Shown one piece after another: positions 4,582 to 11,344 of a stretch of DNA of 12,652 nucleotides. The stretch lies in IMG/VR virus record IMGVR_UViG_2660238360_000005, one strand, 5' to 3'. Both the position numbers and the translations under genes were made by a program. Numbering within the stretch: the stretch's first letter is position 1; each line of letters begins with the position of its first letter. Under the pieces are notes generated by a model. It saw only the letters and a program-made list of their open reading frames with translations. It had not been told where the DNA came from and searched no databases. Source of the stretch: a virus (Duplodnaviria > Heunggongvirae > Uroviricota > Caudoviricetes).

Positions 4582-5148
4582 TATCGCGTCCTCAACAATG
4601 AATTTTGTGATGCAGTGCCTGGTGCCTCCAGGTGACGTTAACCAGTTAACAATTAACGCCGGATACAGAGAATCCACCCATAACACTGTTTTTGGTTTTA
4701 ACTGTTCCGCGTGCGCTCAGCCGCATTCACCACATCACAAAATTCACTTTAAAAAGGGCGGCAGAGCAGTCACGGAGTAAAACTGATACCGCCAAACGTC
4801 ACCAGAAAATTGATAACAGAGGGCGTTGCAGCGGGGTTGTCACTTAAGCGTATGGTCAACCTGACAACCCGGTGTCCTCAACGGGGAAGAAATAACCCCG
4901 CCATACTTACCGCCGCACCATTTCGCGGGTTGCCACAACCGGAAGCGCACGGTCGACGAAAATTTAACGACAGGCTATCTATGAACCAGCTACCTCGCCG
5001 TGCGCTTTCGCGTTATGGTCTGACTTTTCAGGGAAATATCCTTTCAGTAAACTGTCAGTGCCGGATGCTCACCCGTGTCCGGCGCACGCACTCCACCTCA
5101 CCCGTGGAGAACTCCTTAATTACCAACCTTAGCTTCGTTGGTTAGCTA

Positions 5149-6704: not shown

Positions 6705-6935
6705 ATGAAAAAATCAGAAGTATTAGGCTATTTTGGCGGAGTTGTTAAAACAGCCGCAGCTCTAGGAACGTCAAAAACCACAGTCAGCATGTGGGGGGAA
6801 GAGGTTCCGTGGAAATGGGCGTTGCTAATTCAGGCAGTCACTGCCGGGGCGCTCAAATATGAGTTACACATACCGACGGTTGTCATTCCCGGTTCTGATC
6901 ATAATCCGCCTTCTAACCAAGGGGGGGATTCATGA
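6705..6935 (+). CDS. Cro/YdaS-like HTH regulator (76 aa)
   Basis: ATG at 6705 with GGAG 7 nt upstream; HTH-like segment GGVVKTAAALGTSKTTVSMW; divergent from the repressor; stop overlaps the next start (ATGA at 6932-6935). Confidence 0.8.
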   Translation: MKKSEVLGYFGGVVKTAAALGTSKTTVSMWGEEVPWKWALLIQAVTAGALKYELHIPTVVIPGSDHNPPSNQGGDS

Positions 6936-7357
6936 AAATCAAGCATGAACACATCCGCATGGCGATGAATGCCTGGGCGCATCCGGACGGCGAAAAAGTA
7001 CCGGCTGCGAAAATTACCAAAGCGTATTTCGAGCTGGGAATGACGTTCCCGGAACTGTATGACGACAGCCATCCGGAAGCCCTGGCTCGCAATACCCAGA
7101 AAATTTTCCGCTGGGTAGAGAAAGACACCCCTGATGCAGTTGAAAAAATTCAGGCGTTGTTACCAGCGATCGAAAAGGCAATGCCACCTTTGCTGGTGGC
7201 CAGAATGCGCAGCCACAGTTCAGCTTATTTTCGGGAGCTGGTGGAGACGCGGGAGCGACTGGTGAGAGACGCTGATGATTTTGTCGCAGTGGCAATCGCC
7301 GGTTTCAATCAGATGAACCGTGGTGGCCCGGCAGGAAATGCTGTGGCAGTACATTGA
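6932..7357 (+). CDS. CII/YdaT-like regulatory protein (141 aa)
   Basis: N-terminus MKIKHEHI.. as I recall for YdaT/phage CII-family proteins; translationally coupled to the upstream cro-like gene, matching the racR | ydaS-ydaT layout of Rac-like prophages. Confidence 0.7.
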   Translation: MKIKHEHIRMAMNAWAHPDGEKVPAAKITKAYFELGMTFPELYDDSHPEALARNTQKIFRWVEKDTPDAVEKIQALLPAIEKAMPPLLVARMRSHSSAYFRELVETRERLVRDADDFVAVAIAGFNQMNRGGPAGNAVAVH

Positions 7358-10134: not shown

Positions 10135-10304
10135 GCTACCTGGCGCAGAACGGGCTGATAAGTATGGGGAATGTTTTACGATGAATATTTAGACTAAAGA
10201 GTTTGTAACGCTATGTAAGTGATTTTTTCTGGTTTAGATATTTATATGTCCGGCCAAATTGAGGTGTGTTTAAATGTAATTGCACATTGATTGTAGGAGG
10301 AATA

Positions 10305-10484
10305 ATGAAAAACGCATTGCAGTTTTTGTTTGTTGCGTTCTGGTTGTTCGTATCATGTATGCCCATCATCTTCACAGCAAGGTATATGGAAAAAGTTGAT
10401 GTTTTGATATTAATATTTGGATATATAAATGCCCTTTTTTTAGGGGTGTTCATGGCGGTCATGTGCATTGAATACTGGCGGTAA
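10305..10484 (+). CDS. Hypothetical small membrane peptide (59 aa, two predicted transmembrane helices)
   Basis: ATG at 10305 with AGGAGG 4 nt upstream; MKNALQFLFVAFWLFVSCMPIIFTARYMEKVDVLILIFGYINALFLGVFMAVMCIEYWR; conspicuously AT-rich relative to its neighbours; flanked by imperfect direct repeats. Confidence 0.5.
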   Translation: MKNALQFLFVAFWLFVSCMPIIFTARYMEKVDVLILIFGYINALFLGVFMAVMCIEYWR

Positions 10485-10539
10485 ATACAGCGAACGCCAT
10501 TGGTTTAGTTGGATATTTACTGTGCCGGACAAAAACGGT

Positions 10540-10567
10540 TTGCGGGGAAATCTTAGTTAAGTAGAAT
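10540..10567 (+). promoter_or_regulatory. Putative hok mRNA promoter
   Basis: TTGCGG (10540-10545), 16-nt spacer, TAGAAT (10562-10567), placing the start near the gcgggtgcttgagg 5' element (10572-10585). Confidence 0.4.
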
Positions 10568-10624
10568 GACTGCGGGTGCTTGAGGCTATCTGTCTCAGGC
10601 ATGAACACCAAAAGGCAGATAGAG

Positions 10625-10692
10625 AAAAGCCCCAGTTAACATTACGCGTCCTGCAAGACGCTTAACATTAATCTGAGGCCATATCTATGCGA
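10625..10692 (-). ncRNA. sok: Putative Sok-like antisense RNA (boundaries approximate)
   Basis: Minus-strand promoter-like TTGACC (plus 10724-10729), 18-nt spacer, TAATCT (plus 10700-10705) inside the mok-like frame would start an antisense transcript near 10692 covering the mok-like start and leader, as in hok/sok loci. 3' end not defined. Confidence 0.3.
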
Positions 10693-10746
10693 CACATAGA
10701 GATTAGCCTCTTACGGACCGAAAGGTCAAGGAGAAGCAGGCTATGA
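10687..10746 (+). CDS. mok-like short coupling ORF (19 codons)
   Basis: ATG 10687; its TGA stop (10744-10746) overlaps the hok ATG (10743-10745). Much shorter than the mok frame as I recall it from plasmid R1, so the assignment is tentative. Confidence 0.35.
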   Translation: MRHIEISLLRTERSRRSRL

Positions 10747-10898
10747 AGCAGCAAAAGGCGATGTTAATCGCCCTGATCGTCATCTGTTTAACCGTCATAG
10801 TGACGGCACTGGTAACGAGGAAAGACCTCTGCGAGGTACGAATCCGAACCGGCCAGACGGAGGTCGCTGTCTTCACAGCTTACGAACCTGAGGAGTAA
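10743..10898 (+). CDS. hok: Hok/Gef-family type I toxin (51 aa)
   Basis: Not in the ORF track. MKQQKAMLIALIVICLTVIVTALVTRKDLCEVRIRTGQTEVAVFTAYEPEE has one transmembrane helix and the conserved Hok/Gef C-terminal region; AAGGAGAAG SD upstream. From memory it matches chromosomal HokD/RelF closely. Confidence 0.9.
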   Translation: MKQQKAMLIALIVICLTVIVTALVTRKDLCEVRIRTGQTEVAVFTAYEPEE

Positions 10899-10966
10899 GA
10901 GACCTGGCGGGGGAGAAATCCCTCGCCACCTCTGATGTGTCAGGCATCCTCAACGCACCCGCACGT

Positions 10967-10993
10967 AACCCGCTTCGGCGGGTTTTGTTTTTT
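10967..10993 (+). terminator. Rho-independent terminator of the hok transcript
   Basis: Stem AACCCGC / GCGGGTT with ttcg loop, followed by TTTTGTTTTTT. Confidence 0.75.
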
Positions 10994-11065
10994 CCTGGCA
11001 TTCTGGTTTACAATTCGCACGCCAGCCTGAACAACTGGCACCTGCTGCGCCAGCAGAGACAACCG

Positions 11066-11344
11066 ATGGCGCACGATACCAAATTACACAATTCTAATGA
11101 TTCTGCCGTCTTTGCCAGTAGGTGCGGACGGCGTTTTCACGCATTCAAATCAGACTGGTTCCAGCATCCTCCATGCACTGAAGAGCAGGCGGAATGGATA
11201 ATTCAGTGTTACCGCAGGCGCGGATACGAGGTTAAGAAAGCTCTTAGCCTCGACTACCGTCACTGGATAATCTCAGTCAGACTCCCTTACTCCGAACGCC
11301 CACCGCGTTCATCCCGCACATACCAGCAACGGATCTGGAGGTAA
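11066..11344 (+). CDS. Hypothetical protein (92 aa)
   Basis: In-frame ATG at 11066 chosen because the track start (10937) would place the hok terminator inside the gene; weak RBS. Position between hok and the DUF968 gene mirrors rem in Qin (from memory). Confidence 0.5.
   Translation: MAHDTKLHNSNDSAVFASRCGRRFHAFKSDWFQHPPCTEEQAEWIIQCYRRRGYEVKKALSLDYRHWIISVRLPYSERPPRSSRTYQQRIWR

What the first reader, a model, noticed from the sequence alone, without database searches (positions are those of the whole stretch)
10540..10993. Complete hok/sok-type type I toxin-antitoxin locus with visible fold-back pairing
The Hok peptide is unmistakable. Beyond the ORF, the mRNA 5' element gcgggtgcttgagg (10572-10585) is complementary to cctcaacgcacccgc (10948-10962) apart from a single-nucleotide bulge, which is the 5'-3' fold-back-inhibition pairing characteristic of hok mRNAs. 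A 19-codon ORF is coupled to hok by ATGA, an antisense promoter lies inside it, and a terminator follows. The locus therefore looks regulated and possibly active rather than a decayed remnant, and it sits in prophage cargo where such modules can act in stabilisation or phage exclusion.
Basis: partly seen in the sequence, partly recalled or inferred. Interest (0 to 1): 0.5.

Follow-up and report, generated by a model that had tools for sequence, protein, structure and literature searches.

The report
Intact hokD-type hok/sok toxin–antitoxin locus

Summary

- **Toxin:** the 51-aa ORF (10743-10898) is 100% identical to E. coli K-12 HokD.
- **Leader:** 10574-10745 matches the Rfam hok/sok leader model at 106.7 bits (threshold 59).
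- **Fold-back pairing:** the mRNA 5' end (10574-10585) pairs with 10948-10960 with one bulged base. This pairing closes the minimum-free-energy fold and is the best partner on the + strand of the whole window. It covaries across Enterobacterales (U-A in 14 loci, C-G in 12, none unpaired).
- **mok:** a 19-codon ORF (10687-10746) ends in ATGA on the hok start codon.
- **Sok:** the promoter lies inside that ORF. The predicted 69-nt antisense RNA (10693 to 10625) matches the annotated sokW of phage 933W by position.
- **Terminator:** one follows at 10967-10993.

The locus sits in a Qin-like lambdoid prophage. It is the intact form of K-12 hokD, which keeps only 10729-10993. About 72% of complete E. 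coli genomes carry a close copy, annotated hokD. [quoted passage not shown]

Two minor points are new. This allele's mok stops at the hok AUG, whereas most relatives have an in-frame 70-codon mok. The Sok 5' tail region is the most variable part of the locus. Activity was not tested here.

Verdict: already known, low interest.

The parts
10540..10567 (+). Probable hok promoter: -35 TTGCGG (10540-10545), 16-nt spacer, -10 TAGAAT (10562-10567)
   Evidence: Read from the sequence. The -10 lies 6 nt upstream of the Rfam model start at 10574. Conservation among 66 related loci begins at about 10556. The same hexamers occur in 933W. The consensus scan did not report it because the -35 matches only 3 of 6. 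Inferred.
10574..10993 (+). Predicted full-length mok-hok mRNA, about 420 nt
   Evidence: The 5' end is taken from the Rfam RF01794 model start. The 3' end is taken from the terminator. The MFE fold is closed by 5'-3' pairing, z = -7.7. Conservation drops beyond about 10993.
10574..10585 (+). tac element (5' end, GGGUGCUUGAGG), which has three alternative pairing partners
   Evidence: It pairs with fbi in the full-length MFE. It pairs with AAGCCCC 10627-10633 in the isolated 5' 61 nt and in the Rfam consensus structure. It pairs with 10592-10602 in the metastable hairpin. It is invariant in 66 close relatives.
10576..10602 (+). Metastable 5' hairpin (GUGCUUGAGGC / GUCUCAGGCAU)
   Evidence: It appears in the MFE once fbi is removed. 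Across 38 divergent leaders 87.7% of cells are paired, against 46% or less when the 3' partner is slid. Six of 11 pairs have changes on both sides, reached by 0 of 500 shuffles.
10627..10633 (+). ucb, the anti-Shine-Dalgarno box (AAGCCCC). It pairs with the mok SD in the closed form and with tac in the open form
   Evidence: Closed form: GCC.CCAG 10629-10636 pairs with CUG.AGGC 10673-10679 in the MFE. Open form: the tac stem in the Rfam structure, with pairs 2-8/75-80 formed in 36-38 of 38 leaders.
10625..10693 (-). Predicted Sok antisense RNA, about 69 nt: 5' single-stranded tail, long hairpin, U tail
   Evidence: The ends were transferred from the annotated sokW misc_RNA of phage 933W through alignment A2. 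It folds as a tail plus hairpin followed by UUUU, -29.3 kcal/mol, z = -5.0. The 71-nt sokW was detected by northern blot in an Sp5 lysogen (PMC8621323). Transcription here is inferred.
10700..10729 (-). Sok promoter: -35 TTGACC (reverse complement of 10724-10729), 18-nt spacer, -10 TAATCT (reverse complement of 10700-10705)
   Evidence: Read from the sequence. It has the same position as TTGCCT-17 nt-TAACCT in 933W. In Sp5, mutating the -10 region of the sokW promoter gave growth retardation (PMC8621323). The A2 and T6 positions of the -10 and the TTG of the -35 are invariant in 38 divergent leaders, although these positions are also constrained by dcb and the hok SD.
10675..10678 (+). mok Shine-Dalgarno sequence (GAGG), 8 nt upstream of the mok AUG
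   Evidence: Read from the sequence. It is sequestered by ucb in the full-length MFE. It pairs with GCCUC 10706-10710 (dcb) in the Rfam open structure.
10687..10746 (+). mok leader ORF, 19 codons (MRHIEISLLRTERSRRSRL). Its UGA stop overlaps the hok AUG (AUGA)
   Evidence: Read from the sequence. The identical ORF occurs in 11 of the 80 IMG/VR loci fetched. Most others have an in-frame 70-codon mok that starts at the same place. The 79-nt patch that carries it is at least 99% identical in 777 E. coli records.
10707..10733 (+). Hairpin that sequesters the hok Shine-Dalgarno sequence (CCUCUU 10707-10712 with AAGGAG 10728-10733)
   Evidence: It is present in the MFE. It is 100% paired in 66 close relatives (helix 6) and 86.8% paired in 38 divergent leaders (helix 9).
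10743..10898 (+). hok toxin gene (51 aa plus stop), equal to HokD
   Evidence: Pfam HOK_GEF E = 1.2e-23. PHROG 251, E = 2.8e-33. It is 100% identical to K-12 HokD and 92% identical to HokW of 933W.
10880..10886 (+). TadA-type editing motif UUACGAA around the Tyr47 codon (UAC, 10881-10883)
   Evidence: Read from the sequence. The ORF is nucleotide-identical to K-12 hokD. K-12 hokD mRNA is reported to be 6% A-to-I edited, recoding Tyr to Cys (PMC12214031). No significant local hairpin is predicted (z = -0.02).
10906..10927 (+). G+C-rich 3'-UTR hairpin, the probable protective 3' end of the processed (truncated) mRNA
   Evidence: It is a 10-bp stem in every fold. It is 91% paired in 66 relatives (helix 16). 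The role is inferred from the R1 3' stem-loop (PMC9841398).
10948..10960 (+). fbi element (CCUCAA-C-GCACCC), which pairs with tac; C10954 is bulged
   Evidence: The fbi starts 45-58 nt after the hok stop codon in 26 of 30 distinct tac/fbi combinations from other species. Pair 4/53 is U-A in 14 loci and C-G in 12, with none unpaired. The outer helix is 100% paired.
10967..10993 (+). Intrinsic terminator (stem 10967-10984 plus T run)
   Evidence: Terminator scan. It is present in the MFE. The K-12 hokD copy shares it.

Best explanation
This is a complete, expression-competent hok/mok/sok type I toxin-antitoxin module of the hokD/hokW lineage. It is carried in the early-right (nin) region of a Qin-like lambdoid prophage of E. 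coli.

The mechanism below is inferred step by step from plasmid R1 hok/sok and from hokW-sokW.

1. A weak promoter (-10 TAGAAT, 10562-10567) makes an mRNA of about 420 nt starting at about 10574.
2. While the mRNA is being made, its 5' end (tac) is held in a local metastable hairpin (10576-10602).
3. In the finished transcript tac pairs with fbi (10948-10960). The mok SD (10675-10678) is then covered by the ucb box, and the hok SD by CCUCUU (10707-10712). The full-length RNA is therefore neither translated nor bound by Sok.
4. Slow 3' trimming back towards the hairpin 10906-10927 removes fbi. tac then pairs with ucb (10627-10633), which frees the mok SD and the Sok target.
5. If Sok is present, it pairs across the mok start region and the duplex is cut by RNase III. 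Sok is predicted to be about 69 nt, from 10693 to 10625 on the - strand, made from its own promoter inside mok.
6. If Sok has decayed, ribosomes translate the 19-codon mok and melt the hok-SD hairpin. They terminate at the UGA that overlaps the hok AUG (AUGA) and re-initiate on hok. Hok inserts into the inner membrane and depolarises the cell.

The most likely physiological role, by analogy with hokW-sokW, is to help host lysis and phage release after prophage induction. Prophage stabilisation or abortive infection remain possible.

Shown here: all the sequence elements, their conservation, and covariation for the three alternative pairings of tac.

Inferred: transcription, processing, Sok action, translational coupling, toxicity in this context, and the role.
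For: - **Toxin:** Hok is identical to K-12 HokD and a Pfam HOK_GEF member.
- **Leader:** Rfam RF01794 matches full length at 106.7 bits, against a gathering score of 59.
- **Fold-back:** the full-length MFE is closed by tac/fbi, z = -7.7. The fbi site is the best + strand partner in the window.
- **Conservation of tac/fbi:** 100% paired in 66 close loci. Across 26 divergent loci there is U-A/C-G covariation with no unpaired case. Further compensatory changes occur in Kluyvera, Citrobacter youngae and Mixta.
- **Alternative pairings of tac:** the metastable hairpin is supported. The tac/ucb and central stems are supported. The hok-SD hairpin is conserved.
- **Sok:** the predicted RNA folds as tail, hairpin and U tail, z = -5.0. 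It coincides with the annotated sokW.
- **The mok allele is not a sporadic frameshift:** its 79-nt patch is at least 99% identical in 777 E. coli records, and the identical ORF occurs in 11 IMG/VR loci.
Against: - No expression data exist for this allele.
- The consensus promoter scan found no promoter on either strand. Both promoters rest on positional homology.
- Thermodynamic folds of 3'-truncated RNAs gave the metastable hairpin, not the open tac/ucb form. The open form rests on the Rfam structure and on pair counts.
- tac, ucb and most SD pairs never vary, so they say little about structure on their own.
- Chromosomal hok loci tested in the past did not mediate post-segregational killing (reported in bioRxiv 10.1101/2025.08.07.668861).
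- Most relatives use an in-frame mok, so the efficiency of the ATGA arrangement is untested.
Confidence: 0.82

Rival explanations
1. The locus is architecturally intact but attenuated or silent. Because mok stops at the hok AUG instead of reading on in frame as in most hokD/hokW/hokC relatives, coupling may be inefficient. The module would then make little Hok and would be a tolerated passenger like other chromosomal hok loci.
For: Most of the 80 IMG/VR loci that encode the identical Hok have an in-frame 70-codon mok. So does the annotated mokW of 933W. Chromosomal hokA/B/C loci were reported not to mediate post-segregational killing.
Against: The ATGA allele is common and uniform: at least 99% identity in 777 records. 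All other elements remain intact and conserved. [quoted passage not shown] AUGA overlaps are a classic termination-reinitiation arrangement (general knowledge).
Confidence: 0.13
2. The locus is a decayed remnant like K-12 hokD (relF): a hok ORF that has lost its own promoter, leader, mok and sok.
For: The Hok protein and the DNA from 10729 to 10993 are essentially identical to K-12 hokD. RefSeq names it hokD.
Against: K-12 identity begins only at about 10729, with relE upstream there. The window has the full upstream 155 nt, which matches the Rfam leader model end to end and is conserved in hundreds of loci.
Confidence: 0.02
3. The 5'-3' complementarity and the short ORF are chance features next to a real hok gene.
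For: The next-best unrelated duplex site in the window is only 2.5 kcal/mol weaker. The cognate versus non-cognate duplex test lacked power: only 2 of 30 cognate pairs were strictly best.
Against: The fbi starts at a fixed distance (45-58 nt after the stop codon) in 26 of 30 distinct combinations from other genera. It shows compensatory changes. The mok start is at the same place in nearly all relatives.
Confidence: 0.01

Closest known systems
hokW-mokW-sokW of Stx2 phages 933W and Sp5 (VT2-Sakai)
   Same: 90.5% nucleotide identity over 431 nt and 92% Hok identity. It has the same promoter hexamers, tac, fbi, Sok position and hairpin. It is prophage-borne. [quoted passage not shown]
   Different: mokW is in frame with hokW (70 aa), whereas here mok is 19 codons in the +1 frame and ends at ATGA. 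The Sok 5' tail and mok codons 2-5 differ. The C-terminal four residues of Hok differ. In 933W the locus lies near the end of the phage genome, not in the nin region, and the sequence after fbi there differs from this terminator.
E. coli K-12 hokD (relF) in the cryptic prophage Qin
   Same: Identical Hok protein. Near-identical DNA from the hok SD through fbi and the terminator, 10729-10993. Same prophage family, and the same chromosomal site next to rspB in the closest genome.
   Different: K-12 has relB-relE immediately upstream. It lacks the hok promoter, tac, ucb, Sok gene, mok start and the Sok -10. The window therefore holds the intact form of that locus.
hok/mok/sok (parB) of plasmid R1
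   Same: Same set of elements: tac, metastable hairpin, ucb, mok SD, dcb, fbi, 3' stem-loop, and a Sok promoter inside mok. In R1 the mok start is also 19 codons upstream of hok (PMC9841398). The R1-type leaders match the same Rfam model.
   Different: Hok is 41% identical. R1 mok is about 70 codons in a frame that overlaps hok. tac and fbi are GGCGC/GCGCC rather than GGGUGC/GCACCC. R1 is plasmid-borne, with a demonstrated post-segregational killing role.
hokC (gef)/mokC and other chromosomal hok loci
   Same: About 80% Hok identity (loci L099-L106). Same leader model and same tac sequence.
   Different: They have a different, shorter Sok-target hairpin, and mok is in frame. They are chromosomal rather than prophage-borne, and in K-12 they are interrupted by insertion sequences (PMC12214031).

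Membership tests
[quoted passage not shown] | Hok/Gef toxin of about 50 aa (Pfam PF01848) | tested here: met
   HOK_GEF E = 1.2e-23, 82.9 bits against a cut-off of 22. 100% identical to K-12 HokD.
[quoted passage not shown] | Structured hok mRNA leader (tac stem, Sok-target hairpin, mok SD/dcb stem) matching Rfam RF01794 | tested here: met
   106.7 bits against a gathering score of 59, model positions 1-157 of 157, on the + strand, ending at the hok AUG. Pair counts on 38 divergent leaders: 70.3% paired against 47% or less when the 3' partner is slid, with 23 pairs changed on both sides.
[quoted passage not shown] | Long-range 5'-3' fold-back (tac/fbi) that closes the full-length mRNA | tested here: met
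   It is present in the MFE, z = -7.7. It is the best + strand partner in the window. It is 100% paired in 66 loci. Covariation is U-A in 14 and C-G in 12 with none unpaired, with more compensatory changes.
[quoted passage not shown] | Metastable 5' hairpin that sequesters tac during transcription | tested here: met
   It is present in folds that lack fbi. 87.7% paired, and 6 of 11 pairs compensatory, reached by 0 of 500 shuffles.
[quoted passage not shown] | mok leader ORF with its own SD, starting upstream of hok and translated through the hok initiation region | tested here: met
   The ORF 10687-10746 has a GAGG 8 nt upstream. It covers the hok-SD hairpin and ends at AUGA. Its start is at the same position as in relatives. 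Actual coupling cannot be tested with these tools.
[quoted passage not shown] | cis-encoded Sok antisense RNA with its own promoter, a 5' tail, a hairpin and a U tail | tested here: inconclusive
   The sequence features are present and coincide with the annotated sokW. However, the consensus promoter scan reports nothing, and the Rfam 'sok' model matches the sense strand, so it does not test the antisense RNA. Transcription is not testable here.
[quoted passage not shown] | 3' processing that activates the mRNA; RNase III cleavage of the Sok-mRNA duplex; toxicity of Hok | not testable with these tools
   These are known for R1 and hokW-sokW (PMC9841398, PMC8621323). RelF/HokD toxicity on overexpression is established knowledge (Gerdes et al. 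1986, cited in PMC8621323).
K-12-type truncated hokD (relBE-hokD arrangement) | relE immediately upstream of hok; no leader, mok or sok | tested here: not met
   Similarity to K-12 begins only at about 10729. The window has the complete leader instead of relE.
hokW/mokW/sokW allele of Stx phages | mok in frame with hok, giving a 70-aa MokW | tested here: not met
   Here mok is in the +1 frame and stops at ATGA. This results from a 2-nt deletion after the ATG and a 1-nt insertion relative to 933W.

The most novel reading that the evidence does not exclude
The hokD/hokW loci of E. coli prophages may form a set of orthogonal 'specificity alleles'. The stretch that encodes the Sok 5' recognition tail and the first mok codons (10680-10702) is the most variable part of an otherwise conserved module. 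This could let several copies coexist in one genome without cross-silencing. The window's allele would be one such type. It has also switched from an in-frame Mok-Hok fusion to a minimal 19-codon mok that hands ribosomes to hok by termination-reinitiation, so it cannot make the 70-aa fusion protein.
Probability: 0.3. Interest if true: 0.35.

Novelty: already known. Interest (0 to 1): 0.15.

Why it matters
It matters little beyond correct annotation. The locus shows what K-12's truncated hokD looked like before relBE and neighbouring DNA replaced its upstream half. RefSeq annotates only the hok ORF here, with no mok or sok, and calls a doubtful gene across the 3' UTR. The Rfam family named 'sok' in fact detects the sense-strand hok leader. 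The short ATGA-coupled mok allele and the variable Sok tail could be useful natural material for studying translational coupling and antisense specificity in a classic system. Neither would surprise a specialist.

Tried and rejected
- **Consensus promoter scan:** it found no promoter on either strand in 10400-11100. Its 4-of-6 rule excludes the hok -35 (3 of 6) and the Sok -10 (3 of 6). I relied on positional homology instead.
- **Folding 3'-truncated mRNAs:** RNAs ending at 10954, 10945 and 10931 did not give the open tac/ucb form. The MFE showed residual 3' pairing or the metastable hairpin, with ensemble frequencies of 0.001 or less. This is not decisive either way.
- **Covariation among 66 close relatives:** it says nothing about tac/fbi, because both sides are invariant. 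More distant loci were needed.
- **Cognate versus non-cognate duplex test:** only 7 distinct tac sequences exist, so the cognate pair was strictly best in just 2 of 30 cases. The test lacked power.
- **MAFFT alignment of divergent leaders:** it misaligns the SD region of plasmid-type loci, which lowers the pair counts for ucb/SD and SD/dcb.
- **PADLOC:** no model matches Hok or its neighbours.
- **NCBIfam:** only sub-threshold Hok family hits.
- **Literature search:** a search for sokD/mokD found nothing relevant.
- **isrK-like hit on the 3' UTR:** it is below the family threshold and was not pursued.
- **Rejected readings:** a decayed remnant, a sporadic frameshift in mok, and chance complementarity.
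Full report
**Observation.**
- gcgggtgcttgagg lies at 10572-10585 and cctcaacgcacccgc at 10948-10962. They are complementary with one bulged base (C10954).
- The hok ORF is 10743-10898 (51 aa).
- A 19-codon ORF starts at ATG 10687. Its TGA (10744-10746) overlaps the hok ATG as ATGA.
- A terminator (stem 10967-10984, T run to 10993) follows.
- On the minus strand, inside the 19-codon ORF, lie TTGACC (reverse complement of 10724-10729) and TAATCT (reverse complement of 10700-10705), 18 nt apart.
- The consensus promoter scan reports no promoter on either strand. It demands 4 of 6 matches per hexamer, and both promoters of this family are known to be non-consensus. The promoters therefore rest on positional homology (see the Sok paragraph).

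**Identity of the toxin and the leader.**
- The peptide is a Pfam Hok/Gef member (E = 1.2e-23) and PHROG 251 'MokW-like host killing'.
- It is 100% identical to E. coli K-12 HokD and 92% identical to HokW of phage 933W.
- Rfam finds RF01794 'sok' at 10574-10745 on the + strand: 106.7 bits against a gathering score of 59, over the full model length.
- That model ends with the hok AUG. It matched the hok-sense strand in all 53 other loci where I got a full-length hit. It is therefore a model of the hok mRNA leader (tac stem, Sok-target hairpin, mok SD/dcb stem), not of the antisense RNA. It confirms the leader and gives a 5' end at 10574, but it does not show an antisense transcript.

**The fold-back pairing.**
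- The predicted full-length RNA (10574-10993) has an MFE of -175.2 kcal/mol (z = -7.7). Nucleotides 1-12 pair with 10948-10960 just upstream of the terminator.
- Scanning the whole window, the site at 10947 is the best + strand duplex partner for the 13-nt 5' end (-21.5 kcal/mol, next unrelated site -19.0).
- In 66 distinct close relatives from IMG/VR the 12 pairs are 100% formed but essentially invariant, which is uninformative.
- I therefore fetched 79 hok loci from GTDB species representatives and located their leaders with Rfam.
- In 26 of 30 distinct tac/fbi combinations the 5' end pairs with a site that starts 45-58 nt after the hok stop codon.
- On an alignment not fitted to any structure, pair 4/53 is U-A in 14 sequences and C-G in 12, with none unpaired. 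The outer helix is 100% paired.
- Further compensatory changes occur in Kluyvera (G12A with C to U), Citrobacter youngae (G11A with C to U) and Mixta, where several pairs are replaced.
- Position 4 is the bulged base of the alternative tac/ucb stem, so its covariation is specific to the fbi pairing.

**The other conformations.**
- *Metastable hairpin.* Removing fbi makes the 5' end fold into a local hairpin (10576-10586 with 10592-10602). This corresponds to the metastable structure described for R1 (PMC9841398). Across 38 divergent leaders it is 87.7% paired against 46% or less for slid controls. Six of 11 pairs are changed on both sides, reached by 0 of 500 shuffles.
- *Open form.* The isolated 5' 61 nt form the tac/ucb stem (GGG.GCUU with AAGCCCC 10627-10633). 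Those pairs hold in 36-38 of 38 leaders, and the central stem covaries strongly.
- *Closed form.* GCC.CCAG (10629-10636) covers the mok SD (GAGG, 10675-10678), and CCUCUU (10707-10712) covers the hok SD (AAGGAG, 10728-10733).
- Thermodynamic folding of truncated RNAs did not itself produce the open form. The switch is therefore supported by homology and pair counts, not by energy minimisation.

**mok.**
- In R1 the mok start is also 19 codons upstream of hok. Only translation up to the hok initiation region is needed, and stop codons placed after the hok start have no effect (PMC9841398).
- Here mok is exactly that minimal stretch.
- Among the 80 IMG/VR loci that encode the identical Hok, 11 share this ORF (MRHIEISLLRTERSRRSRL). 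Most others have an ATG at the same place but read in frame into hok, giving a 70-aa Mok. 933W mokW is annotated that way.
- The difference is a 2-nt deletion after the ATG and a 1-nt insertion (GGCAAGG to GGTCAAGG).
- The allele is not a sporadic frameshift. The 79-nt patch is at least 99% identical in 777 E. coli records. The 933W-type patch reaches that level in 610 records.
- With R1 (a third frame), all three relative frames are used in the family. This fits the view that the act of translating mok matters, not its product.

**Sok.**
- Transferring the annotated sokW of 933W through the alignment gives 10693 to 10625 on the minus strand.
- That RNA folds as a 13-nt tail, a long imperfect hairpin and a U tail (-29.3 kcal/mol, z = -5.0).
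- Its promoter (TTGACC-18 nt-TAATCT) is at least as close to consensus as that of 933W (TTGCCT-17 nt-TAACCT).
- In Sp5, mutating the -10 region of the sokW promoter gave growth retardation when hokW was induced. The 71-nt sokW RNA was seen by northern blot (PMC8621323).
- Among close relatives, the most variable internal stretch of the module is 10685-10692 (mean column entropy 0.93, against 0 to 0.47 in all other bins of the mRNA up to the terminator tail). This stretch covers the Sok 5' tail and the first mok codons.
- Co-resident copies in two genomes differ there (L090 vs L091; L093 vs L095). One pair is identical (L028/L051).
- Diversification of antisense specificity is a reasonable idea, but it was not tested.

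**Context and relation to K-12.**
- The window is a lambdoid prophage. In order it carries:
  - an integrase, an excisionase and a large exonuclease;
  - dicB and DicF (4756-4807, 76.7 bits), then ydfABC;
  - an S24 repressor, Cro and YdaT;
  - a replisome organiser and DUF977;
  - the hok locus;
  - DUF968 (ydfU-like).
- In the closest complete genome it abuts rspB, the Qin site.
- K-12 hokD shares only 10729-10993 and has relE upstream. This copy is therefore the intact form of K-12's rearranged hokD.
- The 454-nt region is covered at 80% or more in 3,927 of 5,426 complete E. coli genomes, with a median of two places per genome, and is annotated hokD.
- It also occurs in 110 phage records and 605 plasmid records.
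- The locus has the same orientation as the early-right operon. Read-through during induction could therefore run against the Sok promoter. This is speculation.

**Function.**
- Nothing here measures activity.
[quoted passage not shown] After mitomycin C treatment sokW falls and HokW rises, and phage release halves without the locus (PMC8621323).
- Chromosomal hok loci tested earlier did not mediate post-segregational killing.
- PADLOC has no matching model.
- I therefore rate 'complete and expression-competent' as well supported. I rate 'assists lysis on induction' as the most likely role, with stabilisation or exclusion as possibilities.

**Verdict.** The locus is a member of a long-known family, is widely annotated, and is close to an experimentally studied homologue. 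The ATGA-terminated mok allele and the variable Sok tail are small variations of possible use to specialists. Novelty: already known. Interest: 0.15.

Noticed in passing
window 10574-10745 (+), and loci L089-L163: The Rfam family RF01794, named 'sok antitoxin', matches the hok-sense strand in every locus tested, and its last three positions are the hok AUG. It models the hok mRNA leader, not the antisense Sok RNA. A hit is therefore not evidence of an antisense transcript.
   Followed up: yes
window 10680-10702: This is the most variable stretch inside an otherwise conserved module (mean column entropy 0.93 in bin 10685-10692). It covers the predicted Sok 5' tail, the mok AUG context and mok codons 2-5. 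Copies in the same genome differ there in two cases (L090/L091, L093/L095) and are identical in one (L028/L051). It may reflect diversification of antisense specificity.
   Followed up: partly
window 10880-10886: The sequence UUACGAA surrounds the Tyr47 codon of hok (UAC, 10881-10883). It matches the TadA editing motif UACG. K-12 hokD mRNA, which has an identical ORF, is reported to be 6% A-to-I edited, recoding Tyr to Cys (PMC12214031). No significant local hairpin is predicted here.
   Followed up: partly
window 10907-10988 (+): There is a weak match to Rfam isrK (a Salmonella island-encoded Hfq-binding sRNA) over the hok 3' UTR hairpin, fbi and terminator: 27.1 bits against a gathering score of 50, E = 8.6e-4 for this 701-nt search. 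The same weak hit occurs in L090 and L095. It is probably just a two-hairpin resemblance.
   Followed up: no
window 4756-4807 (-): The DicF sRNA is present (Rfam RF00039, 76.7 bits, full length), with dicB, ydfD and ydfABC homologues around it. This marks the prophage as Qin/Rac-like. In the closest complete genome (EC32) the integrase end abuts rspB, the K-12 Qin site.
   Followed up: partly
window about 10940-11120 (-); L001 11401-11580; L168 12343-12522: RefSeq (PGAP) annotates a minus-strand 'hypothetical protein' that overlaps the hok fbi and terminator and extends downstream of them. The same records annotate neither mok nor sok. The gene call is probably spurious.
   Followed up: no
window 10266-10484 (+): A small, very hydrophobic ORF lies just upstream of the hok promoter (72 aa from GTG, 59 aa from the ATG; about two membrane-span-like segments). 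It has no Pfam, PHROG or PADLOC match. The surrounding 891 nt are 100% conserved in many E. coli prophages, where the ORF is called hypothetical.
   Followed up: partly
window 10577 (mRNA position 4): This base is bulged in the tac/ucb stem but paired in the tac/fbi helix. There it covaries perfectly (U-A in hokD/hokC-type loci, C-G in plasmid-type loci). This separates selection on the fold-back pairing from selection on the open-form stem.
   Followed up: yes
window 6932-7357 (+): A YdaT-family 'toxin' protein is encoded next to the Cro-like gene, as in Rac. It was not examined.
   Followed up: no
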